NCBI GenBank assembly: GCA_049515535.1
Contig: JBEKTZ010000007.1
Span: 186,001-212,148, forward strand
DNA: 26,148 nt
DNA from: Candidatus Aminicenantales bacterium
GTDB taxonomy: Bacteria > Acidobacteriota > Aminicenantia > Aminicenantales > UBA4085
Direction: 5' to 3'
The position numbers and the translations under genes were made by a program. Below the pieces are notes generated by a model. The model searched no databases and was not told the origin of the DNA. It worked only from the letters and a program-made list of their open reading frames with translations. Positions 7,616 to 25,525 of the stretch are shown here, piece by piece (the first letter of the stretch is position 1; every line of letters begins with the position of its first letter).

Positions 7616-9907
7616 TCAAGGCCTGATCGACAAGGAAATCTTCAGGACTCCCCGCTCTTCCAGGGGGACGAAGCGGCTTGTCGGATCCCAGCGCCGCTCC
7701 CAGTTTTTGTTGTAGACGAGATAGATCTCGTTGCCGGGAGAGATCTGCCAGCGGAGGCGGGCGCTCCAACCGAGCTGCCGGGAGATGTCGTCGTACTGGA
7801 CGTAGTTCATAAGACCGAGGTCGGGCGAGAGGAAGAAATCGGCCTTGAGTTGGTAGAGGTTTTCGTTGAAATTCCCCTCGGCCAGTCGGCCGCGGATGAT
7901 GTCGGCGTTGAACGACAGGTTGGCCGTGCCATTGAGTTTGACCGCCAGGCCGACCCGCCATTCCCCCAGCCAGCCGGAGTAATACGGGCCGAAGCTGTAG
8001 CTCAGGTTGAAGGCGGCGAGGCGGTGGGTCGCCGTATTGAGCGAAACCTGGAAGTTCGTGTAGTCGTAGCCGCGCGCCGGCAGGACCACGCCCTTGGCGA
8101 TCTCGAAGTCGTAGGGCAGGATGTCGCGGTTGATGGTCGTGTTGAACATGACCATTTCGCCGCTTTCGGTCTTGAACCCGAGCGGCGAGAGGGTGAAGCG
8201 GCTCGTTTCGAGATGCCCCGAGAGGTCCCAGTAGTTGTCGCTGCTGGCCGAGAAATAGAACTGGCGGACGAGCGAATCGAGGAATCCCGAGCGCGGACGC
8301 GGCTGGTAGGCCACGCTCAGGAAGCCCGTCTGGATGGCCGGACGCATCATGTATCCCAGCGCCGGGTCCAGGGCCTCGCCGTAGTAAGCGTAGACTGACT
8401 GAACGTTCCAGAGGTCGTTGGGCAGGTCGCAGCGGAAGCCGAAGCCCTGGTGGCGGCCGTCCTTGCGATCGTTCCAGTCGTAGGCGGCCCAGGCGGCGAG
8501 CATGATGTTTTTATTGCCCAGGAACTTGGAGGACGAGTAGTTGAAGTCGACGCCGGCCAGGCTGTTCTTCGCCCCGGTCGGGCTGCCGTTGGTAAAAATG
8601 AGCCCGATTTTGCTCTGGGCGAAGATGTTTTGGACGATTCGGGCGGCCAGGAGATTCTGGCCGGCCAGGGTGTCGAATTTCCCCGTCTGGACGTCCAGGA
8701 CGGCCAGATTCGTGTCGCCGACCTTGCCGTAAAGCTTGGCACCGAAGTTGACGGGAATCTGGCTGCCGTTGTACAGGCCGATGCGGCGGCTGATGAACGG
8801 GGTGAAGCTCACGCTCGAACTGAAGCTGAAGACTTCGGAGCCCTCCAGGAAGAACATGCGCTTTTCGGGGAAATTGATGGGGAAGCGGGTCAGGTTGATG
8901 CGGCGGTCGTCGACCTCGGTTTCGGCGAAATCCATTTTGTAGCTGGCCGCGCCGACCAGGTTGGGCGTGAAGCTTTTGTAAAGATCGAAGCCGCCGTTGG
9001 TTTTCCAGGTCGTCCCGGCTTCCGACCCGTGGGTGGTGTCGGCGCTGACCAGGCCGTAGGGTTTGAAGGTCAGGCCCAGGCCCTGCTTGACGCCTTCGAT
9101 GCCTTCCAAGCCGGCGGCCTCCATGGGGTTGTTGAAATTGCTGTCTCGGTTCGTTCCGGACAGGCGGATGGTCTCCTGTTTGCGGGCGATGACGCGCTCG
9201 ACGTTGAGGCCCCAGGCGGCCAGGCCCGGCTTGAAGGAGATCGACTTGAACGGGATGCGCATTTCGGCGCTCCAGCCGTCCTTGAGGACGCGGCTCCCGG
9301 CTTCCCAGATCCCGTCCCAGTTGAGGCTGGGGCTTCCGGCGTAGACCAGGCCTTCGCTGCGCGCGCCGAGGGGATTGACGTAGAACACGTAGGCCGTCCG
9401 CTTATCCTGGAAGGGGTCAATCAAGACGCGGATCAGGTCGTCGCTGATGGTCGGTTGGGCGCCGTAGGCGTAGCCCATCATCATTTGCGTGCCGCCGGCG
9501 GCGTCGTGGGCCAGGGTGTTGGCGGCGATCTTGCCCGGCTCGCGGTCGAAGCACATCACGCCGATGTAGAGGTTCGCGTCGTCATAGAGGATCCGCAGCT
9601 CGGTCTTCTCGGTGGGCGCGGCCCCGGCCGTGGGCTCGAACATGCGGAAATCGGTGAACGGGGCGGCCGACATCCAGATGGGATCGGAAAGGCCGCCGTC
9701 GATCTTCGGCCCTTCCTTGACCCGGACGGCTTTTACGGCGGAGGAGGCCCTGGGCTCTGCCTGGGGGTCCACTTCCGCCGTACTCGCCCGTGGATATAAG
9801 CTACGGGCGAGTGGCGAGCCCTTGGCTCGTCCATTGACTCCGGCCGCGAAGACGGAGAGCGAAAGAGCGACCGTAAGTCCCATGGAAAAAAACAAAAATC
9901 GTCTCAT
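7616..9907 (-). CDS. CBM9-like plus DUF5916 domain secreted/outer-membrane protein
   Basis: Signal peptide; GPKIDGGLSDPIW, TELRILYDDANLYIGV, WSAEMRIPFKSI, DFAETEVDDRRINLTRFPINFPEKRMFFLEG, SRRIG. Confidence 0.85.
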   Translation of the reverse strand: MRRFLFFSMGLTVALSLSVFAAGVNGRAKGSPLARSLYPRASTAEVDPQAEPRASSAVKAVRVKEGPKIDGGLSDPIWMSAAPFTDFRMFEPTAGAAPTEKTELRILYDDANLYIGVMCFDREPGKIAANTLAHDAAGGTQMMMGYAYGAQPTISDDLIRVLIDPFQDKRTAYVFYVNPLGARSEGLVYAGSPSLNWDGIWEAGSRVLKDGWSAEMRIPFKSISFKPGLAAWGLNVERVIARKQETIRLSGTNRDSNFNNPMEAAGLEGIEGVKQGLGLTFKPYGLVSADTTHGSEAGTTWKTNGGFDLYKSFTPNLVGAASYKMDFAETEVDDRRINLTRFPINFPEKRMFFLEGSEVFSFSSSVSFTPFISRRIGLYNGSQIPVNFGAKLYGKVGDTNLAVLDVQTGKFDTLAGQNLLAARIVQNIFAQSKIGLIFTNGSPTGAKNSLAGVDFNYSSSKFLGNKNIMLAAWAAYDWNDRKDGRHQGFGFRCDLPNDLWNVQSVYAYYGEALDPALGYMMRPAIQTGFLSVAYQPRPRSGFLDSLVRQFYFSASSDNYWDLSGHLETSRFTLSPLGFKTESGEMVMFNTTINRDILPYDFEIAKGVVLPARGYDYTNFQVSLNTATHRLAAFNLSYSFGPYYSGWLGEWRVGLAVKLNGTANLSFNADIIRGRLAEGNFNENLYQLKADFFLSPDLGLMNYVQYDDISRQLGWSARLRWQISPGNEIYLVYNKNWERRWDPTSRFVPLEERGVLKISLSIRP
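9735..9837 (+). repeat. Intragenic hairpin repeat, long (103 bp) copy C
   Basis: First 46 nt match each of the copies at 18602 and 24523 at 40/46; tail GGCTCGTCCATTGA matches at 13/14; two extra internal hairpins. Confidence 0.85.
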
Positions 9908-10014
9908 CTTCTTCTTTCTTGGTGGCTCCGGGGAAGTCCCGGAAACTCAGAAATGATCGCCTATTCTATTATCTTGAGACCGCTTTTTCAAGGCGACGAT
10001 ATGTCAGCGAAGAA

Positions 10015-10533
10015 TCAAGACATGAGCCGCTTCTCGCCTTCCAGCGTTTTGAGGCGGGAGATCTCCTGCGAAACCTCGATGACGCCGCGGTAACGTCCGC
10101 CGGCGTCATAGACGGGGAAATAGCGGATCAGGATGAACTTGCCGCCGCTCTGAATCCAGAATTCCGCGACGTCCTTCGTCTTGTTCTTGAAGGCGGTGAC
10201 GATGTCGTTGACGACATGGATGCTCTTCGGAGGATGGCAGTTCTGGACGGCGCGGCCGATGATAGCCGGGCTCCGCGGAAACAAACGGTCCTTCGTGTCC
10301 GAATAATAGAGGACCCGATCATTCTCATCGACGAAGGTGATATCCACGGGAAGGGTCTTGAGCAGCAGGTCGATCTGCTCGGGCGAGAGACGGCCTTGGG
10401 ACAGCGGGACGGCGGGGTTGTCCTTGGCCCGGACCGCCGGGGGTTCGGGCGGCTTGCCCGCCTTCGGGTCTTTAATGGCGCTTTTGGGGGCTTTCCGCTC
10501 GTCACGTTTGATATTTTCGCCGAGTTTGCTCAT
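10015..10533 (-). CDS. Stand-alone PAS-domain protein (PAS_10 type, like the C-terminus of DUF438 proteins)
   Basis: SD GGAGG; LLKTLPVDITFVDENDRVLYYS, RSPAIIGRAVQNCHPPKS, AEFWIQ, IRYFPV, YRGVIEVSQEI. Confidence 0.85.
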   Translation of the reverse strand: MSKLGENIKRDERKAPKSAIKDPKAGKPPEPPAVRAKDNPAVPLSQGRLSPEQIDLLLKTLPVDITFVDENDRVLYYSDTKDRLFPRSPAIIGRAVQNCHPPKSIHVVNDIVTAFKNKTKDVAEFWIQSGGKFILIRYFPVYDAGGRYRGVIEVSQEISRLKTLEGEKRLMS

Positions 10534-10730
10534 GGGACCTCCGGTTCATATTTAAAAATTCCACGCTATTATATATAGAAAGGGGATCCCAGCCAAGGGA
10601 AACGGCCGTAATCTAAAAGGTGTTTTTTTTCGAGCCCGGCAATGATAAGATGACGTGGTCCGCCCGCCCGCCCGGAATTGTCTTTCGGGCGAGCGGGGCC
10701 GGGCCATGAACAATCGCGAGGTTTGAGACT

Positions 10731-12467
10731 GTGAGAAACCGAAGCATGTTGGCGGCCTACTTCACCATGGAAGTCGCGATCTACCCGGAATTGAAAACCT
10801 ACTCAGGCGGCCTCGGTGTCCTCGCCGGAGATTACCTGAAATCGGCCGCCGACCTCAGGATCCCGATTTCCGCGATCACTTTGCTCTATAACGTCGGCTA
10901 CTTCGACCAGAAAATCGTCCAGATGAGACAGGTAGAGGAATACAACAGGCTCGACCCGATCGAGTACATGACGGAGCTCCCCTATACTGTAAATGTCGAG
11001 ATCGAGGGACGAGACGTCAAGGTGGGATGTGCGAGGATGTATTACATCGGCAACACCAACTTCGCTCAGCCCCACTACTTCTTGTTCACTAGGGGGAACG
11101 CCGGCCGCCCCTGGGACGACGAGATCACGGACAAGCTTTATAAAAAAGGAGCGAATGACCGGAATTACTGGAGAATCGCCCAAGAGCAAGTCTTGGGCAT
11201 CGGCGGAACGAAAATGCTCCACCTCCTCGCCGAGAACGGCGAAATCGAGCTTCCCGAGAATTATCATTTGAATGAAGGACACGCAGGCTTCGCTCCTCTG
11301 GAGCTCGCCAAAAGGTATGGATTCGAAGGAGCGAAAGCGAAAACGGTCTTCACGACCCATACGCCCGTCGAGGCTGGCCACGACATGTTCGATTATGAAA
11401 AAGTCCACAGCATGCTCGGAAGCGGCCTCGAGGGCGCGAACCTCCGGGACCTGGGCGGGCAAGATTGCCTGAACATGACCCGGCTCTCCCTCAACCTCAG
11501 CCGCTACGCGAACGCCGTGGCGAAGCGGCACGGGATCGTCACCCGCCGGATGTTCCCGGGATACGCCATCGACAGCATCACGAACGGAGTGCATTCCCGG
11601 ACATGGACCAGCAAGGTCTTCAAGAAGCTCTTCGACGAGCACTTCAACGGCTATGACTTTCAGACGAATTGGAGGGCGGACCCATCGCTCCTCGGCACGG
11701 TGGACCGGATCTCCGATGAAGCGATCCTCCAGGCGCACAAAGTCGCCAAAAGAAACCTGCTCGATTTTGTGAAGAAAACCACGGGTGATATCTTGGATGA
11801 GAACAAACTCACCCTGGGTTTTGCCCGAAGATTCGCGACTTATAAGAGAGCCAACTTGATCTTCTCGGATCTGGACAGGCTCGTGGAGGCGAGCGGAAAC
11901 GGGCAGGTCCAGTTCGTCTTCTCGGGAAAAGCGCATCCCAACGACGAACAGGGCAAGGCGGTCATGACCGATGTGTTGAAAAACGCCGAAAAACTCAAAG
12001 ACAGGCTCAGGGTCGTCTTCATCCCGAATTACGAGATGGACAAGGGGCTCCTGCTGACGGCGGGCGTCGATGCCTGGCTCAACTTGCCGCGGCGGCCCTG
12101 GGAAGCGAGCGGCACGAGCGGCATGAAAGCCGCGCATAACGGGGTTCCGAGCTTCTCGACCGTCGACGGTTGGTGGGATGAGGTTCCCAAAGAGGAGAGC
12201 GCAGAACGCCGGGGCGGCTGGTCGATCGGGAGCGAACCGCGGGACGACGAACTGGAGCGTCCCGGCTCCGACCTCGCGGATTTCGAGAGCTTTTGCGACA
12301 GGCTCAAAAATGACGTCCGGAAGGCCTATGCCGACCCGAAAGCCTGGGCTCGGGTCATGAAAGGCGCTATCAAGAACGCAGCTTATTTCAACACCCATAG
12401 AATGGTCAAAGAATACGTCGCCCGCGCCTACGGCTTGAGGCTGGAGGACGCGGTCGTCAAAGAATAG
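10731..12467 (+). CDS. glgP: Alpha-glucan (glycogen/maltodextrin) phosphorylase, GT35, short form
   Basis: AYFTME, YSGGLGVLAGD, HLNEGH, FTTHTPVEAGHD, ITNGVH, FARRFATYKR, GKAHP, PLP site EASGTSGMKAAHNG. Confidence 0.95.
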   Translation: MRNRSMLAAYFTMEVAIYPELKTYSGGLGVLAGDYLKSAADLRIPISAITLLYNVGYFDQKIVQMRQVEEYNRLDPIEYMTELPYTVNVEIEGRDVKVGCARMYYIGNTNFAQPHYFLFTRGNAGRPWDDEITDKLYKKGANDRNYWRIAQEQVLGIGGTKMLHLLAENGEIELPENYHLNEGHAGFAPLELAKRYGFEGAKAKTVFTTHTPVEAGHDMFDYEKVHSMLGSGLEGANLRDLGGQDCLNMTRLSLNLSRYANAVAKRHGIVTRRMFPGYAIDSITNGVHSRTWTSKVFKKLFDEHFNGYDFQTNWRADPSLLGTVDRISDEAILQAHKVAKRNLLDFVKKTTGDILDENKLTLGFARRFATYKRANLIFSDLDRLVEASGNGQVQFVFSGKAHPNDEQGKAVMTDVLKNAEKLKDRLRVVFIPNYEMDKGLLLTAGVDAWLNLPRRPWEASGTSGMKAAHNGVPSFSTVDGWWDEVPKEESAERRGGWSIGSEPRDDELERPGSDLADFESFCDRLKNDVRKAYADPKAWARVMKGAIKNAAYFNTHRMVKEYVARAYGLRLEDAVVKE

Positions 12468-12474
12468 GAATTCG

Positions 12475-15400
12475 ATGGCCCTCTTCGAGTTTCATGTCTC
12501 CCGCCGCGCCCGCGATCTCTATGGCTTCGAGGAGTCCCTTTTTTCCTTTGACGGCCGGGTGATCCTTGCCGATTTCGCCGCGTCGCGGGCGTTCGCCCGG
12601 AAGATCGACGCGAAACGCCGTCCGGAGCAAACGATCCGCGCCGGCCGGCTCAACGCGATGGGGCTGATCGACGAACTGCAGCACGGCGTCGTCGAAGCTT
12701 ATCGGGAGCAGAAGAATCCCCGGGTGATGTCCGAGGCGCTCGAATGGCTTACGGCGCGGATCGGACCCGAGGGCGTGGATGGAACGCTCCTCCGTTTCGT
12801 TGCGGAGTTTCCGCCGGTCGCTGTGTATCAGGATCGACTCACCGCCGCCGAATACCTGAGCGGCGCGACGGACGGCCTGGCCCACCGGGAAATCGCCCTC
12901 GAAGAGATGCTGATGGTGTGGCTGGCAAACCTCAATCCGGCCTTCGGACCTTTTAAGGAGTTGTTCGACGACGAACCGTTGAAAAGCGGAACCGCTTATC
13001 CGCGGATCATGGCGGCCCTGCGCGAGTTTTTTGCCGAACAGCCGTCCTTCGGCCCTGATCATCAGAACTTGATCGACCTCCTGCGAGCCCCGGCTCTCGC
13101 CGCCCCGGGTTCTCTGGCGGCGCAGCTCGATTATATGCGCCAACGCTGGGGATCTCTGCTCGGCCCGCTGCTTCAGCGCCTGTTGCGGAGCCTCGACTTC
13201 ATCCGGGAAGAGGAGAAACCGGGTTTCACCGGCCCGGGCCAGGCCCGGCTTCCGGTCTTCGGCCCGGACGCCCAAGCCGCCTCGCTCGGTTTGTTCGGGC
13301 CCGGGACGGCGGGCCCGCGCGAGCCGGAACCGGAATTCGAACGCTTCAGCCCCGATCGCGATTGGATGCCGAATCTCGTGTTGATGGCGAAGAACACCTA
13401 TGTCTGGCTCGATCAGCTGTCGAAGAGATACGAGCGGCCCATCGCCCGGCTCGATCAGATTCCCGACGAAGAACTGGATGCGCTGCGCCGGTCGGGCATG
13501 ACGGGCCTCTGGTTGATCGGCCTCTGGGAGCGCAGCCGGGCGTCGGAACGCATCAAGCGGATCACGGGCAACCCCGAAGCGGTCGCTTCGGCCTACGCCT
13601 TGTTCGATTACACCATCGCCGAAGATCTGGGCGGGGACGCGGCGCTCCAGGATCTGAAGGCGCGCGCCCTCCACCGCGGCATCCGCCTGGCCAGCGACAT
13701 GGTCCCGAATCACATGGGCATCGACTCGCGCTGGGTGATCGAGCATCCCGATTGGTTCATCGCCCTCGATCAACCGCCGTTTCCGGCCTACGCGTTCAAC
13801 GGCCCCGATCTGTCGTGGGACGCGCGCGTCGGCATCCAGATCGAAGATCGCTACTACGACCGAGCCGACGCCGCCGTGGTCTTCAAGCGCGTCAACAAAT
13901 GGACGGGCGCCGCAACGTACATTTATCACGGCAACGACGGCTCGAGCTTTCCATGGAACGACACCGCCCAGCTCGATTTCCTCAAGGCCGAGGTGCGCGA
14001 GGCGGTCATCCAAACGATCCTGCACGTGGCCCGCAATTTTCCCGTGATCCGCTTTGACGCGGCGATGACCATGGCCAAACGGCATTTTCAAAGGCTGTGG
14101 TTTCCGGAGCCCGGCGCCGGCGGCGCGATTCCGTCCCGCGCCGAGCACGGTTTGACCAAAGAGCGCTTCGATGCGGCCATGCCCTCGGAGTTCTGGCGCG
14201 AAGTCGTCGACCGAGTGGCGGCTGAGGCGCCCGATACCCTTCTGCTGGCCGAAGCCTTTTGGCTGATGGAAGGCTATTTCGTGCGGACGCTGGGGATGCA
14301 TCGCGTCTACAACAGCGCTTTCATGAACATGTTGCGCGACGAGGACAACGCCAAATACCGCGGCGTCATGAAGTCCACTCTGGAGTTCGACCCGGAGGTG
14401 CTGAAGCGCTACGTCAATTTCATGAACAATCCGGACGAGAAGACGGCGATCGAACAGTTCGGTGACGGCGACAAATATTTCGGCGTGTGCACGCTGCTGG
14501 CGACGCTGCCCGGGCTGCCGATGTTCGGCCACGGCCAGGTCGAAGGCCTGGCCGAGAAATACGGCATGGAATACCGCCGCGCGTATTACGATGAACATCC
14601 GAAACCCTGGCTCGTCGAGCGGCACGAGCGCGAAATCTTCCCGCTCCTTCACAAACGCTATCTTTTCGCGGGCGTCGAAAATTTCCTGCTCTACGACATG
14701 TTCCGGACCGACGGCCGCGTCGATGAGAACGTGTTCGCCTTCTCGAACGGCGCCGGCGGCGAGCGCGCTCTCGTCGTCTATCACAACAAGTTCGCGGAAA
14801 CGAGCGGATGGATCCGCAGGTCGGCCGCCTTCGCGGTGAAGACGGGGTCCGCCGACGAAAAAAAACTGGTCCAAAGGGAGCTGCGGGACGGCCTGCTCCT
14901 CCCCGATGACCCGGCGGCGTGGGTGGTGTTCAAAGATCAGATCACCGGGCTCGAATACATTCGCAACGGCCGGGAACTGTGCGAGCGCGGTCTCTATATC
15001 GAGCTCGCCGCGTACAAGCGCCACGTGTTCGCGGACTTCCGCGAAGTGCGCGACGGCAGGGACCGGCGTTTCGCCAGGCTCGCGGAGGAATTGAAAGGCA
15101 GCGGCGTGTGGCGGATCGATGAGGCCGCCCGGGAAGTCGTTTCGCGGCCAGTCCGGAGGCCGTTCAGGGAGTTGGTCAATGCCGGTTTTTTCGATTGGTT
15201 GTTGAGGAACCGGGCCGTCGATCCGGCCGTCGCCTTGAATCCCGCCGTCGGCGACGAGGTCATGCGGAAATCGTCGCACGTCGTGCGGGGAATCCGCTAC
15301 GTGCTCGGCGGCGCGGGCGCCGACGAAACGATGGAGACGGCGATGCGGCGCGATTTCGAGGCGATCCTGCAACTGCCGATCATCGACAGCCGCTTCCCGC

Positions 15401-17253: not shown

Positions 17254-17284
17254 AACGGAGTCAGGCGCTAAAAAGAGACGTCTA

Positions 17285-18451
17285 ATGCTCAAACGGGAAA
17301 CCATGACCTCGCGCGAGCGGGTCTTGGCAGCTCTCAATCACGAAATACCGGACCGCGTGCCGATCGATTTCGGCGGCAACCAGACCGGCATCCACAAGAA
17401 CGCTTACCGGAATCTGGCCCGCCATCTCGGTTTCGACGAGGAGATCCGGATCATGGATGACGTCCAGCAGTTGGCCAGGCCGAGCGAGCGGGTGCTGGAG
17501 CGCTTTCATGTCGATACGCGCTATGTCGGGGCGGGTCCGGCTTCGACCTGGAAAGGCGGCATCGTCCAGGCCGAGCGCGGCGGGAGGATCTGGCACGACC
17601 TTACGGACGAGTTCGGCGTCCGCTGGTCGATGCCCGACGATCAGCCGCTCTACATGGACATCACACTGAATCCCCTGGCCGACGCCGCCATCAAGGACGT
17701 CCGCGATTACGCCTGGCCGAAGGGCGACGATCCCGGGCGTTTCGCCGGCCTCCGCGACCGGGCCCTGCACATCCTGAACGATACGTCCTACGCCGTGGTC
17801 AGCGGCATCTCCGGCGTGATTTATGAATTTGGCTGGTACCTGCGCGGGCTCGAGCGATGGTTTTGCGATCTTCTGACCGATCCGGAATTCTGCGAAGCCG
17901 TGCTGGACCGAATGCTCAAATACTGGCTGGATTGGTTTCGCCTGTTCCTCGACGAGGTCGGCGACATCGTCGATGTGATCATGATCGGCGACGACCTCGC
18001 GGGCCAGGACGGGCCCCTCTTTCATCCCGAGATCTACCGCCGCTTAGTCAAACCGCGCCACAAACGGCTCGTCCGGTACATCCGCTCCCGCACCCGGGCG
18101 AAGATCTGGTATCACACCTGCGGCTCCTGCCTCGCCTACATCCCGGATCTCGTCGACAACGGCATCCATATCCTCAATCCCGTCCAGCTCGGGGCGAGGC
18201 AAATGGACCCCGCGGAATTGAAGCGCCGCTTCGGCCGCGACCTGGTCTTTTGGGGCGGCGGCTGCGACGCGCAGCACGTCCTGCCGCGCGGCGCGCCCGC
18301 CGACATTGCGGATAACGTCCGCCGGAACCTCGCCGCCTTCATGCCCGACGGCGGCTATGTTTTCGCCGGTATCCATAACATTCAAGGCGAAGTCCCGCCG
18401 GAAAATATCGTCGCGCTGTTCGATACCGCCTATGAACACGGATTCTATTAA
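17285..18451 (+). CDS. Uroporphyrinogen decarboxylase/MtaA-CmuA methyltransferase-family protein
   Basis: MTSRERV..ALNHEIPDRVPID (alternative start 17303), DEFG, GDDLAGQ, HTCG, ILNPVQ, LVFWGG, GGYVFAGIHNIQ. Confidence 0.88.
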   Translation: MLKRETMTSRERVLAALNHEIPDRVPIDFGGNQTGIHKNAYRNLARHLGFDEEIRIMDDVQQLARPSERVLERFHVDTRYVGAGPASTWKGGIVQAERGGRIWHDLTDEFGVRWSMPDDQPLYMDITLNPLADAAIKDVRDYAWPKGDDPGRFAGLRDRALHILNDTSYAVVSGISGVIYEFGWYLRGLERWFCDLLTDPEFCEAVLDRMLKYWLDWFRLFLDEVGDIVDVIMIGDDLAGQDGPLFHPEIYRRLVKPRHKRLVRYIRSRTRAKIWYHTCGSCLAYIPDLVDNGIHILNPVQLGARQMDPAELKRRFGRDLVFWGGGCDAQHVLPRGAPADIADNVRRNLAAFMPDGGYVFAGIHNIQGEVPPENIVALFDTAYEHGFY

Positions 18452-18457
18452 GAATAA

Positions 18458-18530
18458 GGAGACACAATACCTGTTTCCGTATTTAAATCCCTTTCGCGCT
18501 GTGAAATGGGGAAACAGGTATTGTGTCTCC
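18458..18530. repeat. REP/REPIN-like perfect 21-bp inverted repeat
   Basis: GGAGACACAATACCTGTTTCC (18458-18478) and GGAAACAGGTATTGTGTCTCC (18510-18530), 31-nt spacer, intergenic. Confidence 0.85.
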
Positions 18531-18544
18531 AAAGGACTTATAAG

Positions 18545-21271
18545 ATGAGAAGAAGCGGGTTGATGTTCGTCGCGGTTTTATTGATAGAAACATTCCTGTC
18601 CACGGCGGACGGGGCCCCGGGCTTTGCCCGGGGGGCCACTTCCGCCGCGAAGGCTCGTCCCTTGACGGCCGCAGACCCGGCTTCGCCCGAAGCCGGACAG
18701 CCTCACCTCAGGCCGACGCTCGCGCCCCTTCTCTGGACGCAGGGCCAGCCGGCCGAAACCATTCGCGCCGTCGTCCGCGAGATCGCCGAAAGCGGCAACA
18801 CGGGATTCGTCTGGGAATCCCGGCCGCATCCGGATTATCTCGGCCCGAAATGGTGGGCCGATTTGAAGGTCGCCGTCGATGAAGCCCGCCTCCGGGGCCT
18901 GGACGTCTGGATTTTCGACGAATGGATGTATCCGAGCGGCATCGCCGGAGGCAAGGTCATCGCCGAGAACCCGGAATTGACGCACCACGTCCTCCGCGAT
19001 CGCTCGCTCGTCGCGGACGGCCCCTCGCCCGAAAAAGAATGGGATATCCCCGGCGGCCTGGATAAATCCGAGACCGTCGTGTCCGTGACGGCCTTTACCG
19101 CGGATGCGAAGAAAGACTTCTCCTGCGCGGACCTATCCGTTCGGGCGGTCTCGCGAAATTCCGCGAAAATCAGATGGGCCGTTCCGGCCGGCCAATGGCG
19201 GATCTGCTGGGCGACGTCGTCGCCGGAATCGCCCAAAGAGGGCTGGCGCATGGACACGATGGTCGACGTCCTGAATCCGAAGACGGCCGAAACCTTCATC
19301 CGTCTCACCCACGAAGAAACCTACAAGCGTTTCGCCGCCGATTTCGGGAAAACGATCAAGGGTTTTTTCAGCGATGAGACGGGGTTCCGCAACATCACAT
19401 CCTACGAGAGCCTGCCGGGGAAGCCCGGCATGCCCATGCCCTGGTCGCCCGTGTTCCTCGACTATTTCCGCAAGGCCAAAGGCTATGATCCCCGGCCGTG
19501 GCTCGCCGCGCTGTGGTACGACCTGGCCGCGCGCGGACGGGAGGTTCGATTCGATCTCATGGACGCCTACGCGACGGCCTTCGCGGAGGCGTTCTTCAAG
19601 CCGCAGCAGGATTGGTGCCGCTGCCACGGCGTTCGTTTGATCGGCCATCTCGTGGAGGACAACGGAGCCGACTGCCAGCTCGGATACGGGCCCGGCCACT
19701 GGTTCCGGGCCATGCGCTATTTCGATATGCCCGGGATCGATATCGTCGGCTATCAGGTCACGCCCGGGCTCGACGCGGGCACGAACCGCTGGGTTCCCGA
19801 TTCCGGCCCGGACTGGGACCAGGAGTTCTTTCAATTCGGCCTGCCGGCGATGGCCCGCGGCGCGGCCTTGATCAAGGGCTCGCCGGAGATCTTCTCCGAA
19901 GCCTTCGGGGCCTACGGCTGGAGCGAAGGCCTGCGGATGGTGAAGTGGATCGGCGACTGGCATTTCGTCAACGGGATCGGCGTCATCTCGCCGCACGCGA
20001 CGACCATGAAATTTCATGATCCCGACTGCCCGCCCCATTTCAACCGGACGAGCGGCAATCCCCAATGGCGCTATTATGCGGCCTGGGCGGAGTATGCCAA
20101 GCGGGTCCAGGCCGTTCTCCTGGAAAGCGCCCCGATCTATGACGCGGCGGTGCTATATACCGCCGAATCCTATTGGATGGGTCCGGCCCAAGGCGTGGCG
20201 CCCGTGGTCCGGGCGCTCGAAAACCGCCAGATATCGACCGCCGTCTTGCCGTATGAGACCTGGGCCGGCGACGGCGCGATCGCGGACGGCCGGTGGGATT
20301 ATCAAGGGCAAGCGTTCCCGCTGATCGTCCTTCCCTCGGTTCGCGATATTCCGGCCAAGGCGATCTCCCGGCTTGCCGATTTCGCCGAGCGGGGAGGGCG
20401 GGTGATCGTCGTCGACCGCTGGCCGCAAAGGTCCGTAGACGGCCGCGCGGACGGCGACGTTCTTCATGCTGTCGAGCGGCTGAAACGGGCACCGGGAGCT
20501 TCTTTGTGCGCCCTCCCCGAGATTGGAGAAGTCGCGGCCGGGATCGCGGCTGTCGTCTTTCGCCCCGGGAATCAAAACCTAATGCTCTCGCGGCGAAAAG
20601 CGAAAGACGGGGAGTGGATCATCATCCACAACCGGTCGCTGGACGCGGCCGCCGTCGGCAGATTGGTTGTTCATGGGAGGCGCGGCGAGATCGCCCGCTT
20701 CGACGCGGAGCAGGGAACGTATTTCACCGTTCCTTTCGCGCCTGACAAGGATGGTCTCGAGGCGACGCTTAATATGCCGCCCGGAGCGCTGTGGTGTTTG
20801 CGACTGGGAGCGCGGGTTCCCGAGACCACGACTGCCGTCGATTTTCAATATCGGGAAGATTTCAAGACAGAATGGGATGTGACCGAACTCGATGATCGGG
20901 GATTGAAAGCCGGACCTGCCGTTCATGTGAAAAAGCTCGAGGACTGGAAGAGATGGAAGAACCGGTCCGACTTTTCGGGAACGCTGAGATACCGCGCCTC
21001 AATGGACCTGGCGGGGTCGAACGGCGCCCTCGCCCTGGACGCCGGCCGCGTCGGTGAAATTGCCGAGCTCTTCGTCGACGGCCGTTCGGCCGGCGTGCGG
21101 CTGGCTCCACCCTACGTCTGGGATATTACGGCGCTCGTCCGGCCCGGGAGGGCGACGATCGAGATCGACGTGACGAACACGGCCCGCTTGCGCTGGAGCG
21201 ATCCTTTTTCCCATGGGGAAACCGAAAGCGGTTTGCTGGGCCCGGTTTCACTCCGGAAAGCGACTCGCTAG
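18545..21271 (+). CDS. Secreted GH106 (alpha-L-rhamnosidase)-like glycoside hydrolase
   Basis: ATG 18545 follows AAAGGA; N-terminal hydrophobic segment. YLGPKWW, WIFDEWMYPSG, GFFSDE, LIGHLVED, DMPGID, SEAFGAYGW; C-terminal AELFVDG...PPY...SGLLGPV beta-sandwich. Confidence 0.75.
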   Translation: MRRSGLMFVAVLLIETFLSTADGAPGFARGATSAAKARPLTAADPASPEAGQPHLRPTLAPLLWTQGQPAETIRAVVREIAESGNTGFVWESRPHPDYLGPKWWADLKVAVDEARLRGLDVWIFDEWMYPSGIAGGKVIAENPELTHHVLRDRSLVADGPSPEKEWDIPGGLDKSETVVSVTAFTADAKKDFSCADLSVRAVSRNSAKIRWAVPAGQWRICWATSSPESPKEGWRMDTMVDVLNPKTAETFIRLTHEETYKRFAADFGKTIKGFFSDETGFRNITSYESLPGKPGMPMPWSPVFLDYFRKAKGYDPRPWLAALWYDLAARGREVRFDLMDAYATAFAEAFFKPQQDWCRCHGVRLIGHLVEDNGADCQLGYGPGHWFRAMRYFDMPGIDIVGYQVTPGLDAGTNRWVPDSGPDWDQEFFQFGLPAMARGAALIKGSPEIFSEAFGAYGWSEGLRMVKWIGDWHFVNGIGVISPHATTMKFHDPDCPPHFNRTSGNPQWRYYAAWAEYAKRVQAVLLESAPIYDAAVLYTAESYWMGPAQGVAPVVRALENRQISTAVLPYETWAGDGAIADGRWDYQGQAFPLIVLPSVRDIPAKAISRLADFAERGGRVIVVDRWPQRSVDGRADGDVLHAVERLKRAPGASLCALPEIGEVAAGIAAVVFRPGNQNLMLSRRKAKDGEWIIIHNRSLDAAAVGRLVVHGRRGEIARFDAEQGTYFTVPFAPDKDGLEATLNMPPGALWCLRLGARVPETTTAVDFQYREDFKTEWDVTELDDRGLKAGPAVHVKKLEDWKRWKNRSDFSGTLRYRASMDLAGSNGALALDAGRVGEIAELFVDGRSAGVRLAPPYVWDITALVRPGRATIEIDVTNTARLRWSDPFSHGETESGLLGPVSLRKATR
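18602..18665 (+). repeat. Intragenic hairpin repeat, 64-bp copy A
   Basis: ACGGCGGACGGGGCCCCGGGCTTTGCCCGGGGGGCCACTTCCGCCGCGAAGGCTCGTCCCTTGA; 62/64 identical to 24523-24586. Confidence 0.93.
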
Positions 21272-21329
21272 GAGGCGATGCGGCCCGATCTTTCGTCTTG
21301 GAACTTCCCCGCCGCGCCTGTCCCTTTTT

Positions 21330-22976
21330 CTAATCGATGGCCTGAACGTGCGGTGGACCTTGTCTCCCCGCATTCGTCAGCAGCGTCGCCAGCAAATGCG
21401 CATCCGTGATTCTCGTCAGGCGATATATGGTCGCCCTCGTTTTGTTTTCCGCCAGATCGGGATTGATGAACTTCCAGACGATCTTTCCTTCCTTTGTGAT
21501 TTCAAAAACCCGCCCTTCGCTCGTCTCCGTGATCAAGGTATTCCCGTTCTGGAATCGTTGGGCGGCCCCTCCCCAGCTCGAATAGAACGATCCCGGCTTC
21601 GAGGAATGGTATTCCCAGACGATGTCCTTTCTCAGAGGATCGATCTCAAGGATCCGGGAATATTCCCTCCCCGTGCCGTTGTCAAAAACGAGGATATGTC
21701 CGTTTTTCAATAACGTCGGGTCGTGCTGTCCCTCCAGGATGCCGGGGCCCCAGGCCCATCGGACCTCTTCCTTGTCGATGTCGACGATGGCGATCAGGTC
21801 CAAATTATTCGCGGAAATCAGGAGGTTCCCCTTTTGGCACACACCTTCGATATCCTGGTCTATGACCGTGATCGTATTCGCATGGAATATGTCGAAAGGC
21901 GTCATGCGTTTCAGGAGGGGACGATGCGTCAGTTTTTGTTTCAAGGCCCGCCATAGCCAATCCCGGGGATTGATGATTTGAGCGTATATTTTCGCGACGG
22001 ACCGGAGCGAAATATGGTCTTTCAACAGAGGATACAAGGAAATCGTCTTCTTGATCGTTCCGTCGCCGGACATGACGACGATATCGTCGTTAATGATGGG
22101 GACCGGAAGAGAGAATGAGGTCACGACCTCTTCGGAGCTCACCAGCGTATAGATGTCCTTGTTTTCGGCGATGGCGATCTCGTGGTGCGCTCGCATTTTC
22201 CGTTGCCAGAGGATATGGGAATCCCAATCCAGTCTCATGAGCATGGCGTCCTCGACGCAGACGAGCAGGTCGCCGTTGTCGCAGGCCACGACATAGTGCC
22301 AGTCTTGAGGCGAATCTTTGGGACGCCAGACATGAAGGATGTTCCCCGACATGTCCAGCAGATACGCTCCCGCCTTATAATAGGAATTGTAGAGATTGAG
22401 GCCCGGCGCGCATAAATTCCGGCGATACGTGACAACGCCTTCCGTGATTTGATTCTCTTCATCGTCGACATGAGAAAGATACGGCAGGGATTGGATGACC
22501 TCGGATTGCAAGGGCTGATCGGAGGGCGGGGGCGACGGCGCTGACTCAGGAGAGGACACGGTCATTATCAATGACAGCGCAATGACCAGCCCCGTCGAAG
22601 AAAGCGTGAATAATCTCCGGCCTAGGGGCGTTTTCAATAGGCTCCTTCCGATGAAAACTACGAGGAAAAGGATTCCGAGGGCGATCGCTATTTCCGTTTC
22701 TTTCAAGACATAAGCGGTGATGAGAAGCGTCCATAAGGACAAAGTGACGCGGTCATGTCGGACCGCTTTGAAAAGGACGATGATCATGACCAGAAAGGCT
22801 AACTGAAAATAGATGATGAAAAAGAAAGCGTCGGCGACGCGGCCGATGAGACCTCCCGCACAGAATAAGACAATGAAGGCGATCAGAGAATCCTTCAACC
22901 CCTTTTTTCTCAGTGCGTCGCCGGCCACGGCCTTTTGTCGAAAATCCTTCTGTCTGTTGAACATTCCTCCGCTCAT
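21330..22976 (-). CDS. Membrane-anchored arylsulfotransferase (ASST)-family protein
   Basis: N-terminal TM bundle, then a beta-propeller with AHHEI, IFHANTI, GQHDP, VFDNG, NGNTLITE, VFEITKEGKIVW, IYR. Start uncertain (22976 or 22964). Confidence 0.82.
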   Translation of the reverse strand: MSGGMFNRQKDFRQKAVAGDALRKKGLKDSLIAFIVLFCAGGLIGRVADAFFFIIYFQLAFLVMIIVLFKAVRHDRVTLSLWTLLITAYVLKETEIAIALGILFLVVFIGRSLLKTPLGRRLFTLSSTGLVIALSLIMTVSSPESAPSPPPSDQPLQSEVIQSLPYLSHVDDEENQITEGVVTYRRNLCAPGLNLYNSYYKAGAYLLDMSGNILHVWRPKDSPQDWHYVVACDNGDLLVCVEDAMLMRLDWDSHILWQRKMRAHHEIAIAENKDIYTLVSSEEVVTSFSLPVPIINDDIVVMSGDGTIKKTISLYPLLKDHISLRSVAKIYAQIINPRDWLWRALKQKLTHRPLLKRMTPFDIFHANTITVIDQDIEGVCQKGNLLISANNLDLIAIVDIDKEEVRWAWGPGILEGQHDPTLLKNGHILVFDNGTGREYSRILEIDPLRKDIVWEYHSSKPGSFYSSWGGAAQRFQNGNTLITETSEGRVFEITKEGKIVWKFINPDLAENKTRATIYRLTRITDAHLLATLLTNAGRQGPPHVQAID

Positions 22977-23111
22977 TATCGGTCTTCAGCCGCGTCCTGA
23001 CCCGGGCGAGGTGGAAAACCGCTTCCTTCAAGCTCGTTGCGAACCCACCCTCATGAATTTAGACAAGAAAATAGATGATTGCTTGGATCATTCGGCCCGG
23101 ATATTAAAACT

Positions 23112-23861
23112 TCAGTGGGGATGAGAGTGTTTCAAGATATGCGGTTTTTCGAGTCCGTGGGCGAGCATGAGTTCTTCATCCGAGAGAATTTTCAAGGTTG
23201 GTCCGTCGGCCACGATCTTGCCCTCATCTATGACCACAGTTCTCTCGCACAACTCCGCGACAAGCTCCAAGTCATGGGTCGCGATAATCTTGGTCGATGG
23301 GACGGATCGAAGCCAGGTTTTGAGTTGCCGTTTTCCTCTTGGGTCGAGACCCCGCGTCGGCTCGTCGAGGGCGAGAATTTTCGGCCGACAGGCCAAAATC
23401 CCGGCTAAACAAACATGCTGCTTCTCCCCGCTGCTGAGATGATGGGGCGATCTCTTTTCAAAATCCCGGAGGCCGACTTCCATCAAAACCTGCCGAACGA
23501 GATCTTTAACGTCTTTTTCCGATACCCCGAATTGCAGGGGGCCGAATGCGACATCTTCATACACCGTCGGGCAGAAGATCTGGTCATCGGGATCTTGAAA
23601 CAACAATCCGACATCGCGCCGAATGCGCGGTCCGTTCGATTTGGTGACCGGGAGCCCATGGATGAACACCGAGGGGCGGCCCTTGAAGCCTTCCGGCAAG
23701 AGGCCGTTCAAGTGCAAGAGGAGGGTCGATTTGCCGGCGCCGTTGGGCCCGATCAATCCCACGTTTTCTCCTTCTTCAATCGTCAGGGATATGCCCTGAA
23801 GCGCCCGATGGTCATCCGCGTATTGGAAATGGAGATCTATGATCTCAACGGCTGTCGTCAT
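23112..23861 (-). CDS. cbiO: ECF Ni/Co transporter ATPase (CbiO/NikO)
   Basis: GPNGAGKS, FQDPDDQ, LSSGEK, LDEP, THD; ATG 23861 overlaps the cbiQ TGA (ATGA). Confidence 0.92.
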   Translation of the reverse strand: MTTAVEIIDLHFQYADDHRALQGISLTIEEGENVGLIGPNGAGKSTLLLHLNGLLPEGFKGRPSVFIHGLPVTKSNGPRIRRDVGLLFQDPDDQIFCPTVYEDVAFGPLQFGVSEKDVKDLVRQVLMEVGLRDFEKRSPHHLSSGEKQHVCLAGILACRPKILALDEPTRGLDPRGKRQLKTWLRSVPSTKIIATHDLELVAELCERTVVIDEGKIVADGPTLKILSDEELMLAHGLEKPHILKHSHPH

Positions 23862-24478
23862 GACTTCCATCCTCTCGCGGACATCGCCGCGAATATCCGT
23901 TCCGCGCGCTCCGTGGAGCGCAGGAACAATTGACCTATCATCATCGAAAGAGAACGCCAGGAGCGCGCGTTCTCTTTCTTATTTTTGAACGTCCGGCTCA
24001 GCCGCGCCCGTTTCATCCGTTGCATCTCATCGACAAGGACGAAGACGTATCGGTACATCAGGGCCATCATGGTCAGAAACACCGGCGGCGTATGAAGACG
24101 CCGGAAGACGCCCAGCAATTCCGTGAAAGGCGTCGTATTCGATAAAACGATGATGGTCACGAGACTTAAGGTGCTTTTCACGACAATCGTGGAGAATTTC
24201 AAAAAGCCGCCCGGCTGCAAGAGCGCCAGCACGGCGACAGCGACGATAAAAGGCTCGAAGATGAGGATCCGGCGAACCATGAAACTCAAGGGGATACGGC
24301 TCAGCGCGATGGCGCCGAGAAGGACGACAGCCGTGAACAGAAAAGGATATAGGGCTGTGATCGGAGGAAGGACGATGATGAAAATCGCGCCAAGCGCGAG
24401 CCCCATTTTCAAGGCCGCCGGAAGGCGATGGATCGGGCTGTCGATTCGGCTGTATCGGTCCAAAAAGTCATGGCGCAT
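23858..24478 (-). CDS. cbiQ: ECF Ni/Co transporter T component (CbiQ/NikQ)
   Basis: SPIHRLPA..K, TTPF, MYRY, MKRARLSR, RAERIFAAMSARG. Confidence 0.92.
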   Translation of the reverse strand: MRHDFLDRYSRIDSPIHRLPAALKMGLALGAIFIIVLPPITALYPFLFTAVVLLGAIALSRIPLSFMVRRILIFEPFIVAVAVLALLQPGGFLKFSTIVVKSTLSLVTIIVLSNTTPFTELLGVFRRLHTPPVFLTMMALMYRYVFVLVDEMQRMKRARLSRTFKNKKENARSWRSLSMMIGQLFLRSTERAERIFAAMSARGWKS

Positions 24479-24502
24479 GGTCTTCTCGATTCGAAAAAGC
24501 GA

Positions 24503-25525
24503 TTAAGAAAAATGATCTTTCGACGGCGGACGGGGCTCCGGGCTTTGCCCGGGGGTCCACTTCCGCCGCGAAGGCTCGTCCCTTGATTTCCGAAAAAGGA
24601 TCTTGGCCAGGACCAGGGAAACCACAAAGATGAGAATGGCGCCGATGACTCCGGCCAGGGCCGTGGCCAAGGGGAGAGAGCCGATGCCCGGAACACGATA
24701 TTCCGGAATCGGAGAGGGAACCATGGGCCGGGCCAGGGCTTTTGTGTCGAACCCGAGCGTCGCGGCGACCTTCTCCAATCCGTCGGGCCAGCGGGAGGCA
24801 AAGGGCAGGACGAACAGGACTAATCCCAGCAGCATTAAAGAACCGTAGATCAACACCCCCGTCAACGGCCGAGCCTCGCGCTTGTCGCCGGACATGTCTT
24901 TGAAAGGCCGGAGATCGGGGCGCGCTTTATAGATCGAGGCCAGAACAAACGTCGTGATGAGCGCTTCGCCGATGCCGATCAACATGTGAATTCCCGTCAT
25001 GGCCGGGAAGCCGATAGACCAGCGGGCCGTCCCGGACCAGGCCAATTCCCCGACGCAACATACGGAGGCCAGCACCGTCGAGGTCCAGGCGGCGAACGCC
25101 ACGGCCGCGTATTTTCCATAATCCGCTTTTATCCACCCGGAGATTAGGCGATACAGAGAATATCCTGCCACGGGCGCGATAATGCCCATATTGAAGATAT
25201 TGGCGCCCAGAGCGAGGACACCGCCGTCCGCGAACAGGAAGCATTGCACGATCAAAACCACGGACATCACCAGGATTCCCTCGCTCGGACCGAGCAGAAC
25301 CGCGACGAGAACCGCGCCCAGGAGATGCCCCGAAGTCCCGGCGATGACGGGGAAATTGATCATCTGGGCGACGAAGATAAAGGCGGCCGCCAGCCCCATC
25401 AAAGGCACTTTCCTGGGGGACATTTGAGTCTTGAGAACTTTCAGGGCCCGCCCTATTCCTATAAGGGAAAATAGGGATGTCGCAACGATCGTTTTCGTGT
25501 CCAGGAAACCGTCCGGTATGTGCAT
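24503..25525 (-). CDS. cbiM: ECF Ni/Co transporter S component fused to a PDGLE domain (CbiM/NikMN-type)
   Basis: N-terminal MHIPDGFL, GTSGH, FADGGVLALGAN, HMLIGIGEA, C-terminal ASRWPDGLE. Confidence 0.92.
   Translation of the reverse strand: MHIPDGFLDTKTIVATSLFSLIGIGRALKVLKTQMSPRKVPLMGLAAAFIFVAQMINFPVIAGTSGHLLGAVLVAVLLGPSEGILVMSVVLIVQCFLFADGGVLALGANIFNMGIIAPVAGYSLYRLISGWIKADYGKYAAVAFAAWTSTVLASVCCVGELAWSGTARWSIGFPAMTGIHMLIGIGEALITTFVLASIYKARPDLRPFKDMSGDKREARPLTGVLIYGSLMLLGLVLFVLPFASRWPDGLEKVAATLGFDTKALARPMVPSPIPEYRVPGIGSLPLATALAGVIGAILIFVVSLVLAKILFRKSRDEPSRRKWTPGQSPEPRPPSKDHFS
24523..24586 (+). repeat. Intragenic hairpin repeat, 64-bp copy B
   Basis: ACGGCGGACGGGGCTCCGGGCTTTGCCCGGGGGTCCACTTCCGCCGCGAAGGCTCGTCCCTTGA; 62/64 identical to 18602-18665. 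Confidence 0.93.

What the first reader, a model, noticed from the sequence alone, without database searches (positions are those of the whole stretch)
9735..24586. Dispersed hairpin repeat inside protein-coding genes, translated in three different frames (RPE-like 'coding palindrome' family)
Seen: three copies of one GC-rich element at 9735-9837, 18602-18665 and 24523-24586 (the two short copies are 62/64 identical), in three unrelated genes. No intergenic copy was found. In the GH106-like gene it follows the signal-peptide h-region and is read on + as TADGAPGFARGATSAAKARPL. In the DUF5916 gene it sits between the signal peptide and first domain, read on - as VNGRAKGSPLARSLYPRASTAEVDPQAEPRASSAV. 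In cbiM it forms the C-terminal tail, read in another - frame as SRDEPSRRKWTPGQSPEPRPPS. The 64-bp unit has no stop on the - strand and only a terminal TGA on +. Known precedent: Rickettsia palindromic elements insert into ORFs. Inference: a recently active small mobile repeat that adds new peptide segments at tolerant positions. Three copies in 26 kb would imply many genome-wide. I do not know of a description in this lineage.
Basis: partly seen in the sequence, partly recalled or inferred. Interest (0 to 1): 0.85.

Follow-up and report, generated by a model that had tools for sequence, protein, structure and literature searches.

The report
Mini-transposon inside Aminicenantes genes
A tiny hairpin-forming jumping element of Aminicenantes bacteria sits mostly between genes, but about a quarter of its copies lie in frame inside genes, including essential ones, where they add a floppy 21- or 34-residue loop; this kind of coding repeat is known from Rickettsia, and here it appears to move like an IS200/IS605 single-strand transposon.

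Summary
Observation confirmed. The three copies belong to a family of 126 loci in this genome. Net insert is 63 or 102 bp, not 64/103. A related strain lacks exactly 63 bp at the 18604 copy (3 runs). Orthologs lack the 21 or 34 residues in gltX, leuC, AFOR, gpmI, an M28 peptidase and the window genes. Correction: only 28 of 113 complete copies are inside genes, about 6% of what target counts predict. The element inserts 3' of TC(G/C/A)AC, ends in TTGAC, makes no target duplication and nests in itself. This is IS200/IS605 (HUH Y1) behaviour. The guide rule fits 18 of 18 positions in local IS200 ends and also fits the repeat's target. No partner transposase was found beside any copy. Verdict: a PATE-like non-autonomous element that behaves like a Rickettsia coding palindrome; probably tolerated, not adaptive. 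Not found in the paper searches. This scan noted the same family before, in this genome and another (e1-4997402, e1-926099).

The parts
9732..9736 (+). Target pentamer of copy 1 (TTTAC, a variant of the TC[G/C/A]AC consensus); host DNA
   Evidence: boundary inferred from the family consensus
9737..9838 (+). Copy 1, 102-bp form: hairpin 1 (about 9735-9781), 39-nt module with hairpin 2 (9781-9819), hairpin 3 (9813-9831), TTGAC end. Read on minus as 34 aa at the signal-peptide end of the DUF5916 protein. Most diverged of the three
   Evidence: a contig of run X5 runs into the element, so it is present there too
7616..9907 (-). Host gene 1: secreted CBM9-like/DUF5916 protein, 763 aa
18599..18603 (+). 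Target pentamer of copy 2 (TCCAC), kept in the empty allele
   Evidence: joint 18603 to 18667
18604..18666 (+). Copy 2, 63-bp form, read on plus as 21 aa just after the signal-peptide h-region of the GH106-like protein; absent from related strains
   Evidence: skip of 63 in X2, X3, X5; not seen in X4
18545..21271 (+). Host gene 2: GH106-like glycoside hydrolase (Pfam match below the curated cut-off); start at 18545 judged from orthologs
24520..24524 (+). Target pentamer of copy 3 (TCGAC)
24525..24587 (+). Copy 3, 63-bp form ending TTGAT, read on minus as 21 aa in the C-terminal tail of CbiM, six residues before the stop
   Evidence: contigs of X2, X3 and X5 run into it
24503..25525 (-). Host gene 3: CbiM-PDGLE cobalt/nickel ECF substrate component

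Best explanation
A non-autonomous, PATE-like derivative of the IS200/IS605 family. A Y1 HUH transposase (TnpA) supplied in trans binds the IS200-type hairpin on the single strand written here as plus. It cuts 3' of TC(G/C/A)AC at the left and 3' of TTGAC at the right, and inserts the unit 3' of a new target without duplicating it. The common forms are 63 or 102 bp and GC-rich, so insertions into genes keep the frame and usually carry no stop. Selection removes most of them; the survivors lie at signal-peptide ends, tails, linkers and surface loops, and are most likely near-neutral. SHOWN: copy number, exact in-frame inserts, an empty site, one-sided target, no duplication, nesting, depletion from genes. 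INFERRED: TnpA as the mover, the guide bases, the active strand, translation of the inserts, neutrality.
For: Empty allele skipping exactly 63 bp in 3 of 4 runs laid. Left flank consensus T 98, C 104, G/C/A 112, A 95, C 116 of 116, with no 3' consensus beyond C/T at the junction base. The left dinucleotide is not AC in 20 of 110 copies and is repeated on the right in only 2 of those 20, so it is not a duplication. Nested and composite forms (165, 129, about 138-140 bp) break at the internal TCCAC and at TTGAC. Hairpin 1 nearly matches the end hairpins of IS200 elements in relatives G009 and G022. An IS200 in this genome and in G014 has TTGAC at both ends. In six local IS200 left-end types the four bases before the hairpin foot predict the flank at 18 of 18 positions (two of the three pairs are stated in PMC5934647, the third is recalled). 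The repeat has GGGG in that slot (162 of 170 copies), which predicts C-C-N-C, close to the observed target. A sister repeat in this genome shows guide and flank varying together in 16 of 17 copies. PATE definition: PMC3119063, passages.
Against: No Y1 gene lies beside any copy (115 repeat-bearing loci), and no full repeat end flanks the Y1 loci fetched. The only IS200 tnpA in this genome has an internal TAA. IS200 tnpA does not track the repeat: G026 has 11 copies and G039 six, with no repeat hit, while G008, G010, G024 and G027 carry the repeat with only RAYT-like Y1 genes. The target-to-guide linker is 7 nt against 13-14 in the IS200 ends, and it is paired into the stem. The 63-bp form has no second IS200-type hairpin at its right end. 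The commonest target has G where the guide predicts C (65 against 36 of 116). The guide slot is invariant, so the covariation test in this family was empty. The register was chosen after seeing the data, and the cut could be 1 nt to the left, where no guide fits. The sister-family covariation could be shared descent. No exact right-end/left-end junction was found.
Confidence: 0.7

Rival explanations
1. REP/REPIN-type repeat moved by a RAYT (TnpA-REP), one hairpin directing cuts on both sides.
For: One conserved hairpin serves both ends. RAYT-like Y1 genes occur in nearly all relatives, including all five repeat-rich genomes tested. REPs can be intragenic (PMC3733652, passages).
Against: The genome's RAYT-like gene is flanked by a different 27-nt inverted repeat that has its own dispersed copies. 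No RAYT locus fetched is flanked by this repeat. No terminal GTAG tag, no REP doublet structure, and the boundaries are fixed.
Confidence: 0.13
2. Miniature of an IS91-type rolling-circle element (Y2 HUH), which also inserts next to a short motif without duplication.
For: Six Y2 transposase remnants in the genome. Composite forms with a skipped right end resemble read-through termination (inference).
Against: The IS91-type ends here are a different repeated sequence, with no likeness to the repeat. One copy lies in a broken Y2 gene region of G008, which looks like an insertion into it. No Y2 hit in repeat-rich G014 and G027 (both incomplete).
Confidence: 0.06
3. The repeat is kept for a host function: an RNA hairpin acting as regulator or terminator, or a useful peptide tag.
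For: Strong folding. In-gene frame use departs from target supply: the Ala/Gly/Pro-rich plus frame has 6 of 16 against 1.6 expected (p = 0.025, one post hoc test).
Against: Patchy even within a genus. Polymorphic between close strains. Four frames in use. No preference for convergent gene ends (15 of 88, against 254 of 1590 gaps). About 94% depleted from genes.
Confidence: 0.05
4. IS110-type recombinase substrate with an AC core, or a classical MITE with a 2-3 bp duplication.
For: AC stands at both junctions in 74 of 110 copies. Two IS110 genes in the genome.
Against: No terminal inverted repeats. Left-flank variants are not copied to the right (2 of 20). No target consensus on the 3' side. 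IS110 loci share no ends with the repeat.
Confidence: 0.05
5. Assembly artefact.
For: The genome is a 32-contig assembly and no raw reads were laid (one search used contigs only).
Against: Near-identical elements in 11 of 40 relatives. Each copy has its own substitutions. Contigs from other studies run into copies 1 and 3. In-gene inserts are exact multiples of three.
Confidence: 0.01

Closest known systems
PATEs (palindrome-associated transposable elements), transposase-free IS200/IS605 derivatives of Haloquadratum (PMC3119063, passages read)
   Same: Short, no terminal inverted repeats, near-terminal palindrome like local IS200 ends, no target duplication, conserved 4-5 nt target at the 5' flank, strain-specific insertions, nesting with other repeats.
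   Different: Only one IS200-type hairpin; 7-nt linker paired into the stem; units of 63 + 39k bp; a quarter of copies in frame in genes; no parent IS with these ends found.
Rickettsia palindromic elements (RPE) and like coding palindromes of Wolbachia and Methanocaldococcus (seen through reviews PMC2229807 and PMC3733652; original papers not read)
   Same: Dispersed hairpin repeat, both intergenic and in frame in conserved genes, several frames, probably near-neutral.
   Different: RPE is 105-146 bp with terminal inverted repeats per the review. This is 63/102 bp, GC-rich, asymmetric, with a one-sided target, in a free-living lineage, and recently active. No sequence comparison with RPEs was run.
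IS200/IS605 insertion sequences, paradigm IS608 (PMC3201880, PMC5934647, passages read)
   Same: Insertion 3' of a short motif that stays in the flank, a similar motif at the right end, precise empty site, guide bases before the hairpin foot that fit the target.
   Different: No tnpA or tnpB; linker 7 nt; right-end hairpin and guide not identifiable; more degenerate target.
REP/REPIN with RAYT; GTAG and CGTC families (PMC3733652, passages read)
   Same: Small GC-rich hairpin, about a hundred copies, mostly extragenic, some intragenic.
   Different: No terminal tag, no doublets, fixed boundaries; the genome's RAYT-like gene has another repeat family.

Membership tests
PATE / IS200-IS605 derivative | Too short for a transposase; no terminal inverted repeats | tested here: met
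   63-180 bp; the two ends are unrelated
PATE / IS200-IS605 derivative | No target duplication; precise empty site | tested here: met
PATE / IS200-IS605 derivative | Conserved 4-5 nt target 5' of the left end, none on the 3' side | tested here: met
PATE / IS200-IS605 derivative | Near-terminal palindrome related to those of IS200/IS605 elements | tested here: met
   hairpin 1 against IS200 ends of G009 and G022: 19 of 21 and 19 of 20 matched bases (context)
PATE / IS200-IS605 derivative | Guide tetranucleotide before the left hairpin that pairs with the target | tested here: inconclusive
   GGGG fits two positions and partly the third; slot invariant, linker short, register post hoc
PATE / IS200-IS605 derivative | Second palindrome with its own guide at the right end | tested here: inconclusive
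   hairpin 3 of the 102-bp form has IS200-like spacing but no fitting guide; the 63-bp form lacks its 5' arm
PATE / IS200-IS605 derivative | Parent IS with the same ends | tested here: inconclusive
   none in the Y1 loci fetched; only 30 of the Y1 matches were fetched and most genomes are fragmented
PATE / IS200-IS605 derivative | Cleavage and strand transfer by TnpA on single strands | not testable with these tools
   needs biochemistry
RPE-like coding palindrome | Dispersed palindromic repeat inserted in frame in unrelated conserved genes | tested here: met
RPE-like coding palindrome | Terminal inverted repeats and 105-146 bp length (RPE proper) | tested here: not met
   against PMC2229807
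RPE-like coding palindrome | Insert is translated and the host protein works | not testable with these tools
   indirect only: gltX and bamA each gave one match in the genome and are open
REP/REPIN-RAYT | Repeats flank a RAYT gene | tested here: not met
Classical MITE | Terminal inverted repeats and target duplication | tested here: not met

The most novel reading that the evidence does not exclude
The family is a single-hairpin HUH element whose 63 + 39k bp modular design has been selected for reading-frame compatibility. That would let it colonise coding DNA, even essential genes, as a precisely excisable peptide cassette, and it would suggest that RPE-type coding palindromes in general are IS200/IS605 miniatures. 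For: 63, 102, 141 and 180 bp forms are all multiples of three, and two sister families have 0 of 32 copies inside genes against 28 of 113 (p = 0.0006). Against: open frames are no more than shuffles give, 62/101-bp variants are common in some relatives, and the share of multiples of three is the same inside and outside genes.
Probability: 0.15. Interest if true: 0.75.

Novelty: new variant of a known kind. Interest (0 to 1): 0.45.

Why it matters
It is a recent, dateable case of mobile DNA adding new loops to working proteins, with filled and empty alleles in close strains and inserts in single-copy gltX and bamA. How coding palindromes such as RPEs move is, from my own knowledge, unsettled; the review passages I read name no mover. 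This family has ends that make a specific in-vitro test possible. Its copies also map insertion-tolerant sites in about 28 proteins and can mislead annotation. The general phenomenon is known, so the gain is a mechanism and a new lineage, not a new kind of system.

Tried and rejected
Rfam: no match at the repeat. Viral contigs: 0 exact matches to the right-end 18-mer. Run search: no RNA holder listed. TnpB family: 0 of 5 genomes. IscB RRXRR family: 0 of 5, but the controls did not ring, so uninformative. IS91 and IS110 as partners: no shared ends. Target duplication: rejected. Excess of open frames: not seen, 5 of 6 against shuffle mean 4.7 and 3 of 6 against 3.3. Selection for multiples of three inside genes: not detectable, 26 of 28 against 75 of 85, p = 0.73; one of the two exceptions is a boundary error of my pattern at leuC. 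Target/element covariation in 170 copies: only weak signals from rare variants, 124 tests uncorrected. tRNA interruption in this genome: 49 tRNAs with or without the elements. The tRNA-like sites in L152 and L198 gave no tRNA after removal. The nadE-like site in L192 and L210 is not in frame. bamA orthologs are too variable at the site for an exact gap. The AlphaFold model of GltX has low confidence at the insert (230-258) but also at 190-204 and 265-280, from 13 sequences, so it does not prove tolerance. The first family C pattern found nothing (redone). Transposase translations were out of frame (redone). Nine of the 37 'inside' rows are not in the count of 28: gene score under 30, or an incomplete element.
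Full report
Observation. The three copies are real and lie where stated. The short copies are 62/64 identical and all three peptides read as given. The long copy folds into three hairpins (z = -7.0, 0 of 200 shuffles as stable); the short ones give z = -2.0 to -3.1. Host genes are a CBM9-like/DUF5916 protein, a GH106-like hydrolase (below the Pfam cut-off) and CbiM-PDGLE. There is no Rfam match.

Family size and spread. BLASTN of the three copies against the 3.45-Mb genome gives 126 merged loci. Among 110 copies with both ends, 50 are 63 bp and 38 are 102 bp; 129, 141 and 165 bp occur three times each. Eleven of 40 relatives have hits, patchily within genera. One of 300 genomes drawn across the phylum has a hit, and it is in the same order (at most three candidates were scored per genome). 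Three assemblies labelled Eubacteriales share flanks with Aminicenantes loci, so I take that label as doubtful. The lineage of the window is inferred from these matches.

Inside or between genes. I trained a hexamer gene model that recovers the window's genes. With score 30 or more, 28 of 113 complete copies lie wholly inside a gene, 17 of them at least 30 codons from either end; 85 do not. Target motifs are 46,411 inside against 8,505 outside such genes, so about 464 in-gene copies would be expected and 28 are seen, about 6%. This figure depends on my gene model. The window, with three of three in genes, is therefore untypical. Hosts include gltX, bamA, a leuC/aconitase-like subunit, AFOR, a permuted gpmI, ribBA, ispG and an ispA-like gene.

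The inserts are true insertions. Orthologs show an exact 21-aa gap in gltX (21 of 21), leuC (13 of 13) and AFOR (13 of 13) and in an M28 peptidase (2 of 2). DUF5916 shows a 34-aa gap at the signal-peptide end (13 of 15), GH106 a 20-21-aa gap (3 of 3), and gpmI a gap of about 34 aa in a linker (12 of 13). These are the best-scoring loci fetched, not all matches. bamA orthologs lack the peptide but are too variable for an exact gap. gltX and bamA each gave one match in the genome. CbiM homologs end 6-15 residues after the last helix, as the window protein does without 21 aa; none of 79 other cbiM loci has the right-end motif within one mismatch. At the DNA level, contigs from 3 of 4 runs join 18603 to 18667, skipping 63 bp; in X2 the contig is about 98% identical to the window. 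Contigs of X5 run into copy 1, and contigs of X2, X3 and X5 run into copy 3, so those insertions are older or shared. In a solved GluRS the site aligns with a short variable loop, and the model shows low confidence there.

Ends and target. The left flank reads T 98, C 104, G/C/A 65/36/11, A 95, C 116 of 116; the last base is partly forced by my pattern. The right end is TTGA plus C 104 or T 13 of 118, with no consensus after it. The left dinucleotide differs from AC in 20 of 110 copies and is repeated on the right in 2 of them, which rejects a duplication. The element contains its own target, and nested or composite forms break exactly there and at TTGAC. Run X5 shows the same 36-nt left module repeated. 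The cut could lie after the C or one base earlier; both fit the empty site.

Mechanism. IS608 inserts 3' of a tetranucleotide that stays in the flank, recognised by pairing with four guide bases before the hairpin foot (PMC3201880 and PMC5934647, passages). The second paper gives two of the pairs; the third I recalled. Six IS200 left-end types from this genome and relatives obey all three pairs, 18 of 18; three of the six types are single copies. One of these elements, broken by a TAA here and intact in G014, has TTGAC at both ends. A second IS200 clade has hairpins nearly identical to hairpin 1. The repeat has GGGG before its hairpin (162 of 170), predicting C-C-N-C. The observed target fits at the outer positions; at the middle one G outnumbers C, a mismatch also seen at local IS200 right ends. 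The genome holds two sister families with IS200-type hairpins. In one, the first guide base and the flank vary together in 16 of 17 copies, though shared descent could give that too. Against the model: the linker is 7 nt and paired, the 63-bp form has no right-end hairpin of IS200 type, no Y1 gene lies beside a copy, and IS200 tnpA does not track the repeat across genomes. I put TnpA at 0.7 and a RAYT at 0.13.

Is coding capacity selected? Weak evidence. The main lengths are 63 + 39k, and the two sister families have 0 of 32 copies inside genes (p = 0.0006), but they are longer and often not multiples of three. Open frames match shuffles, 62/101-bp variants are frequent in some relatives, and multiples of three are equally common inside and outside genes. 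Frame use among 16 in-gene 63-mers favours the Ala/Gly/Pro-rich plus frame (p = 0.025, post hoc), which fits host-level filtering. In relatives' loci, 8 of 11 copies with coding flanks are in frame; one of the other three is a false call. Tolerated selfish DNA is the simplest reading.

Comparison with what is known. It meets most PATE criteria (PMC3119063, passages) and works like an RPE (PMC2229807, first third and passages; PMC3733652 and PMC3184786, passages), but it fails RPE's terminal-repeat and length features. Six paper searches listed no description of this family; none of the 15 papers listed mentions Aminicenantes. The library lacks most subscription journals, I did not read the original RPE papers, and I opened no supplements; the repeat tables in the supplements of PMC3733652 could bear on novelty. 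I stated the IS200/IS605 reading before my first look-up of earlier notes. Those notes report the same family here and in another genome, and like cases in other phyla. They are unchecked AI notes and not independent support.

Verdict. Real, well supported, and a new variant of a known kind. Interest 0.45.

Noticed in passing
G000 genome-wide, e.g. C1:75557-75741: Sister repeat family of 164-196 bp with an IS200-type first hairpin and TTGAC-like motifs at both ends; 15 complete copies, none inside a gene. It nests with the studied repeat at C1:55444 and C9:159654.
   Followed up: partly
G000 genome-wide, e.g. C1:294757-294864: Third repeat family of 105-108 bp, 17 copies, two hairpins, a classical PATE layout with a 14-nt linker; first guide base and flank vary together in 16 of 17.
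   Followed up: partly
L002:1357-2426 (G000:C13): RAYT-like Y1 gene flanked by 27-nt inverted repeats that also occur as doublets on several contigs.
   Followed up: partly
L001:1413-2025 (G000:C9): About 610-bp IS200 with a TAA in tnpA, 95% identical to an intact copy in G014, inserted in another ORF.
   Followed up: yes
L152 and L198: The repeat sits in the anticodon arm of what looks like a decayed tRNA-Val(CAC) gene in two assemblies; ARAGORN finds no tRNA even after removal.
   Followed up: partly
L192/L210 and L124/L214: Orthologous sites carry different forms of the element, so it changes size in place; at the nadE-like site it replaces the last residues out of frame.
   Followed up: partly
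window 18458-18530: 27-nt inverted repeat between the URO-D-like and GH106-like genes, with one partial copy elsewhere on C7; one arm also resembles DNA next to an IS110 end in L009.
   Followed up: partly
L234 (G000:C2:209882-211621): gpmI has its two halves in swapped order, and the 102-bp insert lies in the joining linker.
   Followed up: partly
L004:985-1120 and copies: Six IS91-type transposase remnants and many copies of their own end sequence, unrelated to the studied repeat.
   Followed up: partly
L114, L124, L160 and others; L166: Assemblies labelled Eubacteriales share repeat loci with Aminicenantes, and one Spirochaetes contig has a full copy in an Aminicenantes-like flank; mislabelling or misbinning is likely.
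   Followed up: no
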